Shown here piece after piece: positions 299 to 4,670 of a stretch of DNA of 5,004 nucleotides. The stretch lies in the IMG/VR virus record IMGVR_UViG_3300014523_000031; one strand, 5' to 3'. The stretch's first letter is position 1. Each line of letters opens with the position of its first letter. This DNA comes from a virus. Lineage: Duplodnaviria > Heunggongvirae > Uroviricota > Caudoviricetes. The position numbers and the translations under genes were made by a program. A model generated the notes under the pieces. It was not told where the DNA came from. It made no database searches and saw only the letters and a program-made list of their open reading frames with translations.

Positions 299-414
299 NN
301 NNNNNNNNNNNNNNNNNNNNNNNNNNNNNNNNNNNNNNNNNNNNNNNNNNNNNNNNNNNNNNNNNNNNNNNNNNNNNNNNNNNNNNNNNNNNNNNNNNNN
401 NNNNNNNNNNNNNN
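299..414. other. Assembly gap (116 consecutive N)
   Basis: Direct observation of an N run; true length and content unknown. Confidence 0.99.
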
Positions 415-474: not shown

Positions 475-930
475 TTACTTAACCAATGATGCTGCATATT
501 CGATAAGGTAAAGCTTTGGGGCCAGCCAAATTTTTAACCAAGTCATATTGGTTACTACACCAATAATAAAAAATCCCCACAGAGTCAAAACTCCAACCAA
601 TGGCATGATAAGAAGATTAATATCACCTTTGCTATCCCAAACCATTGTCGGCCTGTATTTGGGATTTCCTTTCTCCCATGAATATCCTTCATCACCGATT
701 TTACCTGTCTCAACTCTTTGGCACTGCTTCTTCATAAACCAGAAAACCAGTGGGATTGTTAGAATGGCGATGGCCATTAATGTTTTAATCAGACTGTCAA
801 CCATATTCCATAGCAGCAACTGATGAACAACATCAGGAATCTGTGCCTGGCTAAATGAAACAGCCGCGTCTATTCCATTACTGGCTTTTTGCAGTAGTTC
901 TACGAGAATCTTGTTTGCTTGTTCTTCCAT
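475..930 (-). CDS. Hypothetical small membrane protein, 151 aa, two predicted transmembrane segments; function unknown
   Basis: ATG 930 with AAGGTGA Shine-Dalgarno (complement of plus 934-940). Hydrophobic stretches LMAIAILTIPLVFWFM and LLIMPLVGVLTLWGFFIIGVV flank a charged loop. Has its own downstream terminator. The antisense ORF 548-823 looks compositionally junk-like. Confidence 0.75.
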   Translation of the reverse strand: MEEQANKILVELLQKASNGIDAAVSFSQAQIPDVVHQLLLWNMVDSLIKTLMAIAILTIPLVFWFMKKQCQRVETGKIGDEGYSWEKGNPKYRPTMVWDSKGDINLLIMPLVGVLTLWGFFIIGVVTNMTWLKIWLAPKLYLIEYAASLVK

Positions 931-970: not shown

Positions 971-999
971 CAAAAATAAAGGCCACCATCAGGCAGCCT
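968..999 (-). terminator. Probable rho-independent terminator downstream of the 83-aa ORF
   Basis: Minus-strand hairpin AAGGCUGCC-UGAU-GGUGGCCUU (9-bp stem with two G-U pairs) followed by UAUUUUUGG. Contains copy 2 of the 16-bp repeat and overlaps the stop codon at 989-991. Confidence 0.45.
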
Positions 1000-1240
1000 T
1001 GTTGTAAATGTTGCAGGTATCAAGTAAGTAATTAGATGGAGCGCCATAAATTATGAATTCATCGTTTGTCGGGTCCATCTCCATCTCTTGGCCTATTGCC
1101 ATTCTTGCGTCAGTGTCATCAGAGGCGAAGCATAAAACAGCCCACGCACCCATTGTTTTAAAAAGAACTGCAATTGGCTGTGGTTTTACTGAATTTGCGT
1201 TAGCGCGAAAATCACAAATCGCACTTTCATGAAATTCCAT
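989..1240 (-). CDS. Hypothetical soluble protein, 83 aa; function unknown
   Basis: ATG 1240 with GAGGTGAG Shine-Dalgarno (complement of plus 1244-1251). No hydrophobic segments. Sits between the tL1-like terminator and the 151-aa membrane protein gene. Confidence 0.65.
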   Translation of the reverse strand: MEFHESAICDFRANANSVKPQPIAVLFKTMGAWAVLCFASDDTDARMAIGQEMEMDPTNDEFIIYGAPSNYLLDTCNIYNKAA

Positions 1241-1356: not shown

Positions 1357-1379
1357 AATAAAAAACCCACCGAAGTGGG
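1357..1379 (-). terminator. Rho-independent terminator (tL1-like) in the leftward operon
   Basis: Minus-strand hairpin CCCAC-UUCG-GUGGG (plus 1366-1379) followed immediately by UUUUUUAUU (complement of plus 1357-1365). On the plus strand the T-run is displaced about 9 nt from the stem, so the minus orientation is favoured. Confidence 0.7.
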
Positions 1380-1435
1380 CTATGACCATTTTTTATTTGG
1401 ATTTCGTTGGTGAGCGTGATTAACAACTCTGTGCA

Positions 1436-1717
1436 TTACATCCTCATATTTTTCATCTTCAATTTTTCGACATTGCGAGGAAATGGTGTTGCTAATGCTT
1501 TGTCAACTTTGTCCATTGGTTCTTCATTAATCTTATATTCAGGACCGTCATCTATAGCATTAAATCCAGGTGTTACACCGTTTTTTAATGCATATGCTAT
1601 CCTTTTTTCCCATCTCGCTATTCTCCTCCTGTCTCGAGATGTAAGACCTCTATCAGATACTTTTCTGTTTTGTCCGCGGTCAGGATTAACATAAATAGTC
1701 TTTTTCACCATAAGCAT
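1436..1717 (-). CDS. Hypothetical basic protein, about 93 aa, immediately downstream of and coupled to N
   Basis: The ORF-track start at 1723 is a TTG codon. The first ATG (1717-1715) lies 2 nt after the N stop codon (1722-1720). Charged, arginine-rich composition (SRDRRRIARWEKR). Stop TAA 1436-1438. The antisense plus ORF 1407-1694 is low-complexity hydrophobic and rejected. Not recognised. Confidence 0.5.
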   Translation of the reverse strand: MLMVKKTIYVNPDRGQNRKVSDRGLTSRDRRRIARWEKRIAYALKNGVTPGFNAIDDGPEYKINEEPMDKVDKALATPFPRNVEKLKMKNMRM

Positions 1718-1719
1718 AC

Positions 1720-2025
1720 TCAATAAGCACCGTACGGTAGTTTACTGTACAATTTTATTTTTTGGACTGCATGTATTTTGTTTCCTAACGGGTTTGAATC
1801 TTTGTAATAAATACTTCTATTTTTTCGAACGACTTCTTCTTTCTTCTTGCAGCAAAGGCTTCCTAGTGATGCTGCTTTGTCTGCTCTGACGCAACCAGAG
1901 AGCTTTAGCGCAATTTTTCGCGCCAGTGCTTCATTACTGCGTCGATCGGCAATAAGTTCTGCTCTGCGAGCTTTGTAGCGGCTTTTTGCCGTACCTTTGG
2001 ATTCTTTCCAGACAATGGTTACCAT
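1720..2025 (-). CDS. N: Transcription antitermination protein N, phage-21-type arginine-rich motif
   Basis: Product MVTIVWKESKGTAKSRYKARRAELIADRR... carries the boxB-binding motif GTAKSRYKARRAELIA known from phage 21 N. AAGGAG Shine-Dalgarno 6 nt upstream of ATG 2025. The ORF-track start at 2055 adds 10 residues with no SD, so I place the start at 2025. Lies directly downstream of PL and nutL. Confidence 0.9.
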   Translation of the reverse strand: MVTIVWKESKGTAKSRYKARRAELIADRRSNEALARKIALKLSGCVRADKAASLGSLCCKKKEEVVRKNRSIYYKDSNPLGNKIHAVQKIKLYSKLPYGAY

Positions 2026-2135
2026 GATGGTCTCCTTTAAGTGGCTTTGGCGCATGACGCGTCGAGGTGCTTATCTTCTCGATCGCTGTCTTGCAGCTGC
2101 AATTCGCGCCATCCCCAAAACCACTCAAGTTCTGG

Positions 2136-2175
2136 TCTCAACGGTTAGGTTGAGAGTCCGTCGATGTTAAAGAGC
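2136..2175 (-). promoter_or_regulatory. nutL: nutL: boxA plus phage-21-type boxB hairpin
   Basis: Minus-strand boxA GCTCTTTAACA (complement of plus 2165-2175), then boxB UCUCAAC-CUAACC-GUUGAGA (plus 2136-2155; 7-bp perfect stem, 6-nt loop). Same boxA 11-mer and same CUAACC loop as nutR. Confidence 0.85.
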
Positions 2176-2221
2176 CTGCCAATCTGTTCCGTTTGGCTTC
2201 CAGCGTCCTGCTGATGGCTTA

Positions 2222-2275
2222 AATTTAAGACTTCTTAATTTATTGGTCAAGTGCATTTTTGAAGAAAACTTAATT
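2222..2275 (-). promoter_or_regulatory. PL promoter with OL operators (P22-type operator sequences)
   Basis: Minus-strand -35 TTGACC (plus 2245-2250), 17-nt spacer, -10 TAAATT (plus 2222-2227). 18-bp operator-like sites at 2223-2240 (ATTTAAGACTTCTTAATT) and 2258-2275 (TTTGAAGAAAACTTAATT) fit the A.T.AAG....CTT.A.T pattern shared with the OR sites. Confidence 0.6.
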
Positions 2276-2311
2276 TTATGGGCGTGAATTTAGTTTGTCT
2301 TTGATTTTTAA

Positions 2312-2340
2312 CGGGAAATAAAAAAGGGGCGAAAGCCCCT
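2312..2340 (-). terminator. Rho-independent terminator ending the cI transcript
   Basis: Minus-strand hairpin AGGGGC-UUUC-GCCCCU (plus 2325-2340) followed by UUUUUAUUU (complement of plus 2312-2324). Begins at the cI stop codon. No rex-like genes lie between cI and PL. Confidence 0.7.
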
Positions 2341-2990
2341 TAAGGAAGGTTTGCTAGCTTGGCATCAACGACAACGCCAATGATTTTACAGTTCCCATTG
2401 ATTTCAATCATTGGGTATTGTGGATTGAGTGGTTTCAGGAATTTTCTACCGGCATCAATAACTAACTTTTTGAATGTCGCCTCGTTTTCTCCTTCAAGTT
2501 TGGCGACTACCAGCTTTCCATTACGTGGTTCGACTTCTGGGTCGACGAGAATAATCATCCCCTCAGGAATACTCAGTCCTGCCGGGGCAGTCATTGAATC
2601 GCCTTTAACGTCGAGCCAAAAAGAGTCTTCAGAACAATCTACCGTTGTGTCGTACCAGTTATCTATTGCACGCCTATGATATGGCTCTACAGCTTCCATC
2701 CAACATCCTGCGCTTACCCAACTAATTAGAGGATACGAACCTCTTGGATCATGCCTGCTGTGATAGGCAATGTTTGAAAGACTATCCTCTCCTTTCAACA
2801 GGTAATCAGGGGAGCACTGCAAAGCCTTGGCTAAGGCCAATAGGTTTTCGCCATTGGGCTCAGTTTCAGATCGCTCCCATTGGGAAATAGCAACATTAGA
2901 CACGCCAACCATCTTGCCAAGGGCAGCCTGCCTAATCTTGAGTTCTTTTCTGCGAGCGCGAATACGCTCACCCATCAGTTGTGTATTCAT
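2340..2990 (-). CDS. cI: Phage repressor CI (P22 C2-type): N-terminal HTH domain plus C-terminal S24/LexA-like autopeptidase domain
   Basis: 216 aa. HTH segment QAALGKMVGVSNVAISQWERS; Ala-Gly cleavage site in WVSAGCW; catalytic Ser in GDSM and Lys in VVAKL. Sequence matches my recollection of the P22 c2 repressor along its length. Transcribed divergently from cro across the operator region. Confidence 0.96.
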   Translation of the reverse strand: MNTQLMGERIRARRKELKIRQAALGKMVGVSNVAISQWERSETEPNGENLLALAKALQCSPDYLLKGEDSLSNIAYHSRHDPRGSYPLISWVSAGCWMEAVEPYHRRAIDNWYDTTVDCSEDSFWLDVKGDSMTAPAGLSIPEGMIILVDPEVEPRNGKLVVAKLEGENEATFKKLVIDAGRKFLKPLNPQYPMIEINGNCKIIGVVVDAKLANLP

Positions 2991-3056
2991 AGTTAAGACA
3001 TCTTAAATAAACTTGACTTAAGATTCCTTTGGTAGATAATTTAAGTGTTCTTTAAT
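2991..3056. promoter_or_regulatory. OR operator region: three 18-bp P22-type operator sites (OR3, OR2, OR1); PRM expected here on the minus strand
   Basis: Sites at 2991-3008 (AGTTAAGACATCTTAAAT), 3016-3033 (ACTTAAGATTCCTTTGGT) and 3039-3056 (ATTTAAGTGTTCTTTAAT) share the A.T.AAG....CTT.A.T pattern with 7 and 5 bp between them. PRM -10/-35 elements were not resolved confidently. Confidence 0.8.
3013..3040 (+). promoter_or_regulatory. PR promoter
   Basis: -35 TTGACT (3013-3018), 16-nt spacer, -10 GATAAT (3035-3040). Overlaps OR2 and OR1 and sits about 30 nt upstream of cro. Confidence 0.75.
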
Positions 3057-3070
3057 TTCGGAGCGAGTCT

Positions 3071-3256
3071 ATGTACAAAAAAGATGTTATTGACCACTTC
3101 GGAACCCAGCGTGCTGTTGCTAAAGCACTAGGCATTAGCGATGCAGCAGTCTCTCAGTGGAAAGAAGTTATCCCAGAGAAAGACGCCTATCGATTGGAAA
3201 TCGTTACAGCTGGCGCCCTGAAGTATCAAGAAAGTGCTTACCGCCAAGCGGCATAA
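3071..3256 (+). CDS. cro: Cro repressor (P22 Cro-type), 61 aa
   Basis: GGAG Shine-Dalgarno at 3060-3063, ATG 3071. HTH segment QRAVAKALGISDAAVSQW. Sequence matches my recollection of P22 Cro. First gene after PR. Confidence 0.95.
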   Translation: MYKKDVIDHFGTQRAVAKALGISDAAVSQWKEVIPEKDAYRLEIVTAGALKYQESAYRQAA

Positions 3257-3263
3257 GCAAATT

Positions 3264-3303
3264 GCTCTTTAACAGTTCTGGCCTTTCACCTCTAACCGGG
3301 TGA
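3264..3303 (+). promoter_or_regulatory. nutR: nutR: boxA plus phage-21-type boxB hairpin
   Basis: boxA GCTCTTTAACA at 3264-3274 (identical to the nutL boxA), then boxB UCACCU-CUAACC-GGGUGA at 3286-3303 (6-bp stem including one U-G pair, same loop as nutL). Confidence 0.85.
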
Positions 3304-3349
3304 GCAAACATCAGCGGCAAATCCATTGGGTGTGCCGCTATAACTCAAT

Positions 3350-3394
3350 ATCAATATAGGAAAATTAACAAATGGCACAAGCAAGCTACAGCAA
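3350..3394 (-). promoter_or_regulatory. Candidate PRE (establishment promoter) with a CII-binding direct repeat TTGC-N6-TTGC
   Basis: Minus strand reads TTGCTGTAGCTTGC (complement of plus 3381-3394), the canonical CII recognition geometry. It lies within the first codons of cII and points leftward toward cro and cI, as in lambda. The -10 element is not well defined. Confidence 0.55.
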
Positions 3395-3668
3395 GCCAAC
3401 ACAGCGAGAAATTGATCGCGCTGAAACTGATTTACTCATCAACCTGTCAACGCTTACCCAGCGCGGTCTGGCAAAGATGATTGGCTGTCATGAATCGAAG
3501 ATAAGCAGAACGGACTGGAGATTTATTGCTTCGGTCTTGTGTGCTTTCGGAATGGCATCAGACATCAGTCCGATTAGCAGGGCTTTTAAGTATGCGCTTG
3601 ATGAAATCACAAAGAAAAAATCCCCGGCCGCCACCGAGGATTTTAAGCAAATTGATATGCAATTCTGA
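3372..3668 (+). CDS. cII: CII-family transcriptional activator (lambda CII / P22 C1 analog), 98 aa
   Basis: C-terminal KKKSPAATEDFKQIDMQF parallels the lambda CII C-terminus (NKKRPAATERSEQIQMEF as I recall it). HTH-like segment TQRGLAKMIGCHESKISR. AGGA Shine-Dalgarno upstream of ATG 3372. Located after cro and nutR. Confidence 0.9.
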   Translation: MAQASYSKPTQREIDRAETDLLINLSTLTQRGLAKMIGCHESKISRTDWRFIASVLCAFGMASDISPISRAFKYALDEITKKKSPAATEDFKQIDMQF

Positions 3669-3700
3669 GGGAATTACTGGATCAATCCACAGGAGTAATT

Positions 3701-3862
3701 ATGACAAAACGTCGTAAGAAATACCAGGAAAAAGAAGAGATTCGACACCCTGATTCACCTGAGGGATTAGTGGTAGCCGCAGCAAATAACAGGGCGTTCG
3801 CAGAGCGCCTTGTTGGTGTTTACAGACTAGCCAAAGCAGGGGTGAAACATGGGCGTCGTTAA
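3701..3862 (+). CDS. Possible small ORF, 53 aa, basic N-terminus ([53 protein letters not shown])
   Basis: AGGAG Shine-Dalgarno at 3691-3695 with 5-nt spacing to ATG 3701. Stop TAA 3860-3862 overlaps the start of the O-like gene by 14 nt in another frame. Absent from the ORF track because of size. Not recognised. Confidence 0.4.
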   Translation: MTKRRKKYQEKEEIRHPDSPEGLVVAAANNRAFAERLVGVYRLAKAGVKHGRR

Positions 3863-4670
3863 GTTAGCTGATTACAGGCCTCAACTGGAGGTCGTGGAGC
3901 ATCGCGTGGCAGATACCGAAGATGGTTTCATGCGCGTTGCTAACGAGATTATCGACAGTCTGCTGATGGCTGATTTAACCGTCCGGCAGTTGAAGGTGAT
4001 GCTCGCTATCATGCGCAAGACATACGGATTCAATAAGCCGATGGATCGACTCACAAACACGCAGATAGCAGCCATGACAGGTATTCATCACACTCATGTT
4101 TGCGCTGCCAAGCGCCAGCTTATCGAGCGTAAATTCCTCATTGCTGATGGCGTGAAAATCGGAGTGAACAAGGTGGTTTCTCAGTGGATTAGCCAGGACA
4201 GCTTAACATTAGCTAAAACAGCTAATAAAACATTAGCCAAGTCGGCTAATGGGTATAAGCCAAGTCAGCTAAACACAAAAGACAATATACAAAAGACAAT
4301 AAATACAAATACCCCCTTACCCCCTAACGGGGGCGGCGATGGGCAGGTTAAACCTGAACGTCGCAAGGCAGAACGAATCGACTACGAATCCTTCCTGAGC
4401 GCCTACAACGCCGAAGTCGGTGACAGACTTCCACACGCTGTTGCGGTCAACGAGAAACGCAAACGCCGCCTGAAGAAAATCATCCCGCAACTGAAAACGC
4501 CAAACGTGGACGGTTTCAGAGCGTATGTCAGGGCGTTTGTACATCAGGCCAAGCCGTTTTACTTCGGAGACAACGACACTGGCTGGACGGCAGATTTTGA
4601 TTACCTGCTGAGGGAAGATTCGTTAACGGGAGTACGGGAAGGGAAGTTTGCAGACAGGGGGATTGCATGA
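3849..4670 (+). CDS. Replication initiation protein, lambda O / P22 gp18 type
   Basis: 273 aa. N-terminal region ([56 protein letters not shown]...) has the hallmarks of the phage O N-terminal DNA-binding domain. Low-complexity linker ([13 protein letters not shown]) coincides with ori-like iterons in the DNA. Stop TGA overlaps the ATG of the downstream helicase (ATGA at 4667-4670). Confidence 0.9.
4187..4273. repeat. ori-like iterons: four copies of an approximately 20-bp repeat with internal dyad symmetry, inside the O-like gene
   Basis: Copies start at about 4187, 4207, 4231 and 4254, with a core near ATTAGCCAAGTCGGCTAA. The best copy is TTAGCC-AAGTC-GGCTAA at 4233-4249, whose two arms are reverse complements. 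Copies 3 and 4 share 16 of 20 positions by hand alignment. Confidence 0.7.
4274..4333. promoter_or_regulatory. A-rich tract and GC palindrome following the iterons (putative origin unwinding region)
   Basis: 4274-4312 is strongly A-rich on the plus strand and contains a 12-bp direct repeat caaaagacaata (4276-4287 and 4290-4301). It is followed by the palindrome CCCCC-TAAC-GGGGG at 4320-4333. This mirrors the iteron / AT-rich / palindrome layout of lambda ori. Confidence 0.6.

What the first reader, a model, noticed from the sequence alone, without database searches (positions are those of the whole stretch)
1436..1723. Uncharacterised basic ORF coupled to N, upstream of tL1
A 93-aa arginine-rich ORF begins 2 nt after the N stop codon and ends 57 nt before the tL1-like terminator hairpin. 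The ORF-track start is TTG; the first ATG is at 1717. I do not recognise the protein. In lambda, tL1 lies much closer to N, so this looks like an inserted or lineage-specific gene co-expressed with N. Its basic character would suit a nucleic-acid-binding role.
Basis: seen in the sequence. Interest (0 to 1): 0.4.

Follow-up and report, generated by a model that had tools for sequence, protein, structure and literature searches.

The report
Frameshifted nun exclusion gene after N
The "unknown basic ORF" after N is the well-studied phage HK022 nun gene, which blocks superinfecting lambda by arresting its transcription, carried here as a rare natural allele in which a one-base deletion cuts off the part of the protein that stops RNA polymerase.

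Summary
It is nun, the transcription-arrest (lambda-exclusion) gene of phage HK022: PHROG 5632 at E=5e-49, PDB 6ALG and 1HJI, 96-99% DNA identity to HK022, mEp235 and mEpX1. The N-then-nun layout is already annotated in mEp235 and mEpX1 and occurs in about 220 of 5,426 complete E. coli genomes. Phage 21 itself lacks nun.

One A is missing from an A6 run (window 1463-1467). The product is therefore Nun residues 1-82 (109-aa numbering) plus LKMKNMRM, and the last 27 codons sit out of frame, ending at TAG 1383-1381, which abuts the terminator stem. The boxB-binding arginine-rich motif is kept. The RNA-polymerase-arresting segment (residues 87-109) is lost.

The allele is real, not a read error. 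The exact 91-aa product is on 7-14 contigs from several sequencing projects (WP_225996954.1, Escherichia marmotae). It is rare: none of 219 E. coli genomes and none of 67 phage or viral copies has it.

Most likely this is a recent loss of arrest function in one prophage lineage. Interest is low.

The parts
1436..1717 (-). Open part of nun: Nun residues 1-82 (109-aa numbering; alternative starts ATG 1711 and GTG 1708, the latter being residue 1 of the literature and PDB numbering), then the frameshift tail LKMKNMRM and stop TAA 1438-1436. It contains the intact arginine-rich motif DRGLTSRDRRRIARWEKRIAYALKNG.
1463..1467 (-). A5 run (T5 on the + strand). All relatives have A6 here. This 1-nt deletion shifts the nun frame after K82.
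1472..1474 (-). Codon AAT (Asn) where every other copy has GAT (Asp79). This is a second private change, 5 nt upstream of the A-run.
1381..1462 (-). Out-of-frame 3' remnant of nun: codons for I83 to S109 (IEDEKYEDVMHRVVNHAHQRNPNKKWS) and TAG 1383-1381. It encodes the whole RNA-polymerase-arrest segment (residues 87-109). An ATG at 1436-1434 (Nun M92) overlaps the new stop as TAATG and has GAGGA 4-5 nt upstream.
1357..1381 (-). Intrinsic-terminator-like hairpin (7-bp stem, TTCG loop) plus T-run. It starts at the last base of the native nun stop codon.
1744..1772 (-). Counterpart of the annotated HK022 nun-gene promoter (-35 ATGCAG 1772-1767, -10 TACAGT 1749-1744), inside the 3' end of N. It is identical to HK022/O276.
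1720..2025 (-). N antiterminator gene (101 aa). The 5' two-thirds are phage-21 type (ARM GTAKSRYKARRAELIADRR). The 3' third (1720 to about 1837) travels with nun and survives as a remnant upstream of nun in HK022.
2136..2175 (-). nutL of phage-21 type (boxA GCTCTTTA 2175-2168; boxB stem-loop 2155-2136). It is not the lambda-type boxB that Nun recognises.

Best explanation
The ORF is the nun gene of the HK022 family, sitting directly behind a phage-21-type N gene in an mEp235-like lambdoid prophage, most likely of Escherichia marmotae. In intact relatives the 109-112-aa Nun protein is made by the repressed prophage. [quoted passage not shown] Its C-terminal 23 residues thread into the RNA polymerase cleft and block translocation, which aborts early transcription of a superinfecting lambda. 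In this window a 1-nt deletion in an A6 run shifts the frame after residue 82. The predicted product therefore keeps the RNA-binding motif but has lost every known arrest determinant (H93, H98, H100, R102, K106, K107, W108). The best-supported reading is a recent, genuine loss-of-arrest (pseudogene-like) allele fixed in one prophage lineage. Shown here: the identity of the gene, the frameshift, its rarity and recurrence across samples, and conservation of the promoter and terminator. Inferred: loss of lambda exclusion, and expression from the internal promoter.
For: Identity: PHROG 5632 'Nun-like transcription termination factor' at E=5.4e-49; 96-99% DNA identity to HK022, mEp235 and mEpX1, where the gene is annotated Nun; the intact orthologue matches PDB 6ALG chain N over 109/109 residues and the 1HJI boxB-binding peptide 26/26. 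Frameshift: the alignment shows GTCGAAAAAATT in four phages against GTCGAAAAATT here. All 67 copies caught in the fetched loci have A6. It is the only indel in 2.4-3.8 kb against the closest relatives, which are 99.3-99.6% identical. Not an artefact: the exact 91-aa product is on 14 contigs from NCBI, ENA and Logan samples that are 99.7-100% identical to the window but not all identical to each other, and it is WP_225996954.1 of E. marmotae, including a 4.70-Mb contig. Rare: 0 of 219 nun-bearing complete E. coli genomes carry it. Four of the five commonest intact forms are on >=1000 contigs each (the counting cap) and the fifth on 860. [quoted passage not shown] Own nut sites are 21-type and no lambda boxB occurs in the window, so Nun would not target its own phage.
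Against: No experiment here shows that the truncated protein is inactive. At saturating concentrations single C-terminal substitutions keep 59% to over 70% arrest in vitro (PMC5386594), though that does not apply to loss of the whole segment. The 3' remnant is still identical to mEp235, which is expected for a recent event but does not exclude residual use. RefSeq annotates the ORF as a normal 'transcriptional regulator', not a pseudogene. Some of the 14 contigs may be the same isolates counted as both reads and assembly.
Confidence: 0.85

Rival explanations
1. Truncated Nun has a new or residual function. The ARM-only fragment (1-82 plus 8 aa) may still bind lambda boxB and act as a non-toxic competitor of lambda N. 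Alternatively, termination-reinitiation at the TAATG overlap (GAGGA 4-5 nt upstream) may also make the 18-residue peptide MHRVVNHAHQRNPNKKWS, giving a 'split Nun'.
For: The ARM is 100% intact. Nun is described as 'blocking access by lambda N' through boxB binding (PMC4124055). Nun overproduction is toxic through its arrest activity (PMC4496710), so losing the C-terminus could be advantageous. The stop/start overlap TAATG and the SD-like GAGGA are visible in the sequence. The allele persists in several samples.
Against: This is one rare lineage against thousands of intact copies. Other C-terminal lesions are scattered and different, as expected for random decay. An untethered 18-mer would lack the boxB targeting that gives Nun its potency at physiological levels (PMC5386594). 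There is no direct evidence for either product.
Confidence: 0.09
2. Recoding. A -1 ribosomal slip of tRNA-Lys on GAA-AAA-T, or transcriptional slippage on the A-run, restores the frame, so that full-length Nun (the sequence VEKIED would be restored exactly) is still made at a useful level.
For: A -1 slip at the AAA codon would regenerate the wild-type amino-acid sequence (read directly from the sequence). Nun acts at low concentration.
Against: A5 is not a canonical X XXY YYZ heptamer and is too short for efficient RNA polymerase slippage (established knowledge). The 68-76 nt downstream fold no better than shuffles (z = 0.13 and 0.65). Every other copy encodes the protein in one frame with A6.
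Confidence: 0.03
3. Sequencing or assembly error in a homopolymer, with the real gene intact.
For: The lesion is a single-base change in a homopolymer, the classic error type. One other homopolymer-length difference exists at about 976, against one relative.
Against: The same product, with the adjacent D79N change, recurs in at least 7-14 contigs from different projects and platforms, including metagenomes. There is no other indel in 2.4-3.8 kb against the closest relatives, and all other genes are intact.
Confidence: 0.03

Closest known systems
Phage HK022 Nun transcription termination/arrest factor (PDB 6ALG; ARM-boxB complex 1HJI)
   Same: About 98% amino-acid identity over residues 1-82, with an identical boxB-binding ARM. 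The downstream terminator arrangement and the annotated nun promoter hexamers are the same. The lost C-terminal codons are still present out of frame, and their reading MHRVVNHAHQRNPNKKWS is identical in amino acids to HK022 Nun 92-109.
   Different: A frameshift after K82 removes the arrest segment from the product, and there is a D79N change. The gene follows an intact N gene, whereas in HK022 only about 115 nt of the N 3' end remain behind putL.
nun of phages mEp235 and mEpX1 (GenBank JQ182731, JQ182727), annotated 'transcription termination factor Nun' directly after 'antitermination protein N'
   Same: 99.3% DNA identity over N-3'end/nun/terminator, with the same N-nun-terminator layout. 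mEp235 also shares the cI/cro/cII immunity region (99.6% over 2.4 kb).
   Different: Those copies are intact (A6, Asp79). The window has the 1-nt deletion and D79N, and different genes downstream of the terminator.
Lambda N / phage 21 N antiterminators
   Same: [quoted passage not shown]
   Different: There is no sequence homology beyond the ARM type. Nun arrests rather than antiterminates. Here both coexist, with N matched to the phage's own 21-type nut sites and Nun's ARM matched to lambda-type boxB.
Phage 'morons' (independent promoter-gene-terminator units expressed from prophages)
   Same: It has a promoter just upstream (inside N), a single small gene and an intrinsic terminator immediately after the stop. 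It is absent from the otherwise homologous phage 21.
   Different: It is embedded in the early pL operon rather than the late region, and is also transcribed through from pL.

Membership tests
HK022 Nun family (PHROG 5632) | Significant full-length sequence similarity to Nun | tested here: met
   PHROG 5632 at E=5.4e-49, covering residues 3-90 of the ORF. DNA is 96-99% identical to nun of HK022, mEp235 and mEpX1 over the whole gene including the out-of-frame 3' part.
HK022 Nun family (PHROG 5632) | N-terminal arginine-rich motif that binds lambda boxB RNA | tested here: met
   DRGLTSRDRRRIARWEKRIAYALKNG is present in the window's ORF. The same 26 residues in the intact mEp235 orthologue match the 1HJI_B peptide 26/26. 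RNA binding itself was not assayed.
HK022 Nun family (PHROG 5632) | C-terminal arrest segment (residues 87-109: H93, H98, H100, R102, K106, K107, W108) in frame with the ARM | tested here: not met
   The frame shifts after K82 and the product ends LKMKNMRM*. The arrest codons lie in the -1 frame at 1462-1381. So this is a member by descent but a truncated allele.
HK022 Nun family (PHROG 5632) | Located at the start of the pL operon with its own promoter active in the lysogen and a terminator after the gene | tested here: met
   The position after pL-nutL-N, conserved copies of the annotated nun -35/-10 and the terminator-like hairpin. Promoter activity was not measured.
HK022 Nun family (PHROG 5632) | Excludes lambda by nut-dependent transcription arrest | not testable with these tools
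   Needs plating or reporter assays.
Programmed ribosomal frameshift gene | Slippery heptamer plus downstream stimulatory structure, with both conserved among homologues | tested here: not met
   GAAAAAT is not X XXY YYZ in the zero frame. The downstream RNA is no more stable than shuffles. All homologues are single-frame.
Lambda-type N antiterminator | Homology to N family profiles | tested here: not met
   The ORF has no Pfam N_peptide or PHROG 271 hit, while the neighbouring gene 1720-2025 has both.

The most novel reading that the evidence does not exclude
The truncation is not mere decay but a tolerated or selected 'disarmed Nun'. An ARM-only protein would still occupy lambda-type boxB RNA and weaken N-dependent antitermination of superinfecting phages without the host toxicity of the arrest domain. 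It might be accompanied by an 18-residue arrest peptide made by reinitiation at the TAATG overlap.
Probability: 0.08. Interest if true: 0.45.

Novelty: already known. Interest (0 to 1): 0.18.

Why it matters
Mostly this is a correction. The ORF should be labelled nun (frameshifted), not a new N-coupled nucleic-acid-binding gene.

Two modest points of wider use follow. First, Nun has no model in Pfam, NCBIfam or PADLOC, so about 4% of complete E. coli genomes carry it labelled 'hypothetical protein' or 'transcriptional regulator'. Second, in most copies fetched here nun sits directly behind an N gene of non-lambda specificity and shares that gene's 3' end, and HK022, the textbook case without N, retains only a remnant of that end.

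The natural ARM-only allele could serve as a ready-made separation-of-function variant for testing how much of lambda exclusion is due to boxB competition alone.

Tried and rejected
- Pfam, NCBIfam and PADLOC scans of the ORF and of intact Nun found nothing. Only PHROGs names it.
The third positions of nun and of the antisense 95-aa ORF 1407-1694(+) coincide (26 of 42 variable sites fall at position 3 in the sense frame, and 22 of the 37 sites 5' of the deletion at position 3 in the antisense frame). The strand is settled by identity to a purified, structurally solved protein.
- Exact look-ups of the 93-aa (ATG 1717) and 95-aa (TTG) versions found nothing. The 91-aa version (ATG 1711) did.
- The primary papers on the nun promoters (PMC94296), the Nun C-terminus (PMC316458), NusA and RNA binding (PMC19084) and toxicity (PMC2597491) are not held. 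Promoter positions are therefore taken from the GenBank annotation of O276 (MH547045), and the statements on toxicity and the C-terminus from PMC5386594, PMC4124055 and PMC4496710.
- Programmed frameshifting was considered and rejected.
- The literature search found no paper discussing Nun in mEp235-type phages.

Full report
**1. What is in the window**

The window is the immunity and early region of a lambdoid prophage.
- cI (LexA-like, 216 aa) lies at 2340-2990 on the minus strand.
- cro is at 3071-3256, cII at 3372-3668 and O at 3849-4670, followed by a DnaB-type helicase gene.
- Leftward from pL comes a phage-21-type nutL (boxA 2175-2168, boxB 2155-2136), mapped from the phage 21 annotation.
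- The N gene is at 2025-1720 and has the phage-21 arginine-rich motif. It matches PHROG 271 at E=8e-31 and gives a weak Pfam N_peptide hit.
- The finding is the next ORF on the same strand.

**2.

- The minus-strand ORF runs 1723-1436. Its mechanical start is TTG and its first ATG is 1717, which gives 93 aa.
- N's TGA is at 1722-1720, so the ATG starts 2 nt after it.
- The ORF stops at TAA 1438-1436, 54-57 nt before a terminator-like hairpin at 1381-1364 with a T-run.
- The hairpin folds at -11 kcal/mol with z = -2.4.

**3. Identity of the ORF**

The ORF matches PHROG 5632, 'Nun-like transcription termination factor', at E=5.4e-49.
- Its DNA is 99.3% identical to phages mEp235 and mEpX1, where the gene is annotated 'transcription termination factor Nun' directly after 'antitermination protein N'. 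It is 96.2% identical to nun of HK022.
- The intact mEp235 orthologue matches PDB 6ALG chain N ('Transcription termination factor nun') over all 109 residues. It also matches the 26-residue boxB-binding peptide of 1HJI exactly. The window encodes that peptide unchanged.
- So the protein is one of the best-characterised phage transcription factors, not an unknown.
- It has no model in Pfam, NCBIfam or PADLOC. That explains why RefSeq calls it 'hypothetical protein' or 'transcriptional regulator'.

**4. This copy is frameshifted**

- The five-way alignment shows GTC GAA AAA ATT GAA GAT in mEp235, mEpX1, HK022 and PA28. The window reads GTC GAA AAA TTG AAG, so one A is missing from the A6 run (window 1463-1467).
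- Using the 109-residue numbering of the literature (residue 1 is the GTG at 1708), the product is Nun 1-82 followed by LKMKNMRM*.
- The remaining codons, I83 to S109 plus TAG 1383-1381, are still there in the -1 frame. The tail reads MHRVVNHAHQRNPNKKWS*.
- In the native gene the stop codon abuts the terminator stem.
- A second private change, Asp79 to Asn (codon 1474-1472), lies 5 nt upstream of the A-run.

**5. Real mutation or read error?**

The allele is absent from the reference collections searched.
- All 67 copies that the pattern caught in the fetched phage and IMG/VR loci have A6.
- None of the 219 complete E. coli genomes that carry this segment has the window's allele. Their best identity is 97.6% over 81 nt, which is exactly the two private changes.

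The assembly is not generally error-prone.
- Against its closest relatives (99.3-99.6% identity over 2.4-3.8 kb) this is the only indel.
- All other genes in the window are intact.

The allele recurs in independent data.
- The exact 91-aa product (ATG 1711 start), including D79N and the shifted tail, is on 14 contigs. These come from two NCBI assemblies, four Logan SRA assemblies and two ENA metagenome assemblies, and two of the contigs exceed 1 Mb.
- The contigs are 99.7-100% identical to the window over their whole overlap, with small differences among themselves.
- The protein is WP_225996954.1, 'transcriptional regulator [Escherichia marmotae]', and its longest contig is 4.70 Mb.

I conclude that this is a genuine allele fixed in one prophage lineage, probably of E. 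marmotae. It is rare beside the intact forms. Four of the five commonest intact forms are on at least 1000 contigs each (the counting cap) and the fifth is on 860.

Other C-terminal lesions occur sporadically and differ from one another: a stop at Q101, and fusions after V99 or E86. That is the pattern of occasional decay.

**6. What the loss means**

According to the cryo-EM paper (PMC5386594):
- Nun is targeted to lambda transcripts by its N-terminal ARM binding boxB.
- Only residues 87-109 are ordered in the elongation complex. [quoted passage not shown]
- This segment threads between the beta' zipper, lid and rudder and contacts the hybrid and the downstream DNA.
- H98, K106/K107 and W108 substitutions are defective in vivo.

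These last 26 residues are invariant in nearly all intact homologues, including the divergent copy at about 60% identity. Within codons 86-112 there are 4 synonymous changes against 1 non-synonymous.

The window's product keeps the ARM and lacks all of this segment. It should therefore still bind lambda boxB but should not arrest RNA polymerase. That is an inference. No assay was possible.

**7. How the intact unit works in this kind of phage**

- The phage's own nut sites are 21-type, and no lambda-type boxB occurs in the window even at 3 mismatches. N serves the phage's own operons, while Nun is aimed at foreign, lambda-type phages.
- The HK022-derived record MH547045 annotates a nun-gene promoter: -35 ATGCAG and -10 TACAGT, with the -10 27-32 nt upstream of the ATG. 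Both hexamers are identical in the window, at 1772-1767 and 1749-1744, inside the 3' end of N.
- With the terminator at the native stop, nun is a promoter-gene-terminator unit embedded in the pL operon. It can be expressed from the repressed prophage (title of King et al. 2000, cited) and can also be read through from pL.
- nun mutations do not affect HK022 growth or lysogeny, and overproduced Nun is toxic through its arrest activity (PMC4124055, PMC4496710). Loss of the C-terminus would therefore cost the prophage nothing in its own life cycle and could even relieve a burden.

**8. Distribution and mosaic structure**

- Phage 21 itself has no nun. Its N gene is followed by ral.
- Homology of the window to phage 21 spans 1803-3708. 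Homology to HK022 spans 1363-1837.
- The 3' third of this N gene therefore travels with nun. HK022, which has putL instead of N, retains about 115 nt of the N 3' end upstream of nun.
- In about 65 of 80 fetched loci nun is directly preceded by an N ORF ending ...NPLGNKIHAVQKIKLYSKLPYGAY, including copies about 10% diverged. The six HK022-type loci have no such ORF.
- About 220 of 5,426 complete E. coli genomes carry the segment.

**9. Rival readings**

- Programmed frameshifting is unsupported. There is no canonical heptamer, the downstream RNA is no more stable than shuffles (z = 0.13 and 0.65), and every homologue is single-frame.
- A sequencing artefact is very unlikely, given the recurrence described in section 5.
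- A residual or new function cannot be excluded. The ARM-only fragment could compete with lambda N. Reinitiation at the TAATG overlap, which has GAGGA 4-5 nt upstream, could also produce the 18-residue C-terminal peptide. There is no evidence for either beyond what the sequence permits.

**10. Verdict**

This is a known gene in a known arrangement, carried as a rare, recent, naturally truncated allele. Its interpretation is partly right: the gene is lineage-specific, basic and binds nucleic acid. It missed both the identity of the gene and the frameshift. Interest is low.

Noticed in passing
window 299-414 (run of N); counterpart L080:6292-6416: The window has a masked stretch. In the near-identical contig L080 the corresponding ~125 nt hold an inverted repeat (tgtgtattca...tgaatacac) and a terminator-like hairpin gccctccagtgtgagggc followed by a T-run, in the pL-operon sense direction. 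A permissive Rfam scan of L080 3600-6800 gave only a spurious miRNA hit (E=0.85).
   Followed up: partly
window 1720-1837 (-) and L079:1125-1243: The N gene is mosaic. Its 5' two-thirds are phage-21-like, and its 3' third is shared with the DNA upstream of nun in HK022. HK022 therefore looks like an N-nun phage in which the 5' part of N was replaced by putL. The N 3' end and nun stay linked in copies about 10% diverged (L005, L067, L071).
   Followed up: partly
window 989-1240 (-) and 475-930 (-): Two ORFs of unknown function lie downstream of the nun terminator, where lambda has ral and sieB. One is 83 aa (PHROG 2471, E=3e-61). The other is 151 aa with hydrophobic stretches that look like membrane segments (PHROG 3054, E=8e-62). 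Neither hits Pfam, NCBIfam or PADLOC. Each is followed by an 'aaaaataaaggcc...' hairpin-like sequence (about 985-960 and 470-440).
   Followed up: partly
window 1407-1694 (+): There is an antisense 95-aa shadow ORF opposite nun. An antisense open stretch of at least 90 aa is present in 20 of 23 distinct nun alleles. Its third codon positions coincide with those of nun, so codon-position statistics cannot tell the strands apart here.
   Followed up: yes
L003:2070-2410 (phage PA28, KP682381) and the Stx1a-converting phage records: The original PA28 GenBank record annotates only a 45-aa 'hypothetical protein' inside nun, and several Stx1a phage records annotate nothing there, although PA28-type copies translate to an intact 112-aa Nun. 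In these phages N ends a few codons earlier because of a 1-nt difference near its 3' end.
   Followed up: partly
window ~972-976 (+): There is a second homopolymer-length difference (A5 here, A6 in E. coli ETEC1720) in an intergenic, terminator-like region. The closer relative L078 aligns across this stretch without gaps.
   Followed up: no
window 2026-2055 (-): The mechanical N ORF extends 10 codons upstream to ATG 2055 (MRQSHLKETI-). The annotated start in mEp235 corresponds to ATG 2025, which has AAGGAG 7 nt upstream. mEpX1's record uses the longer form.
   Followed up: no
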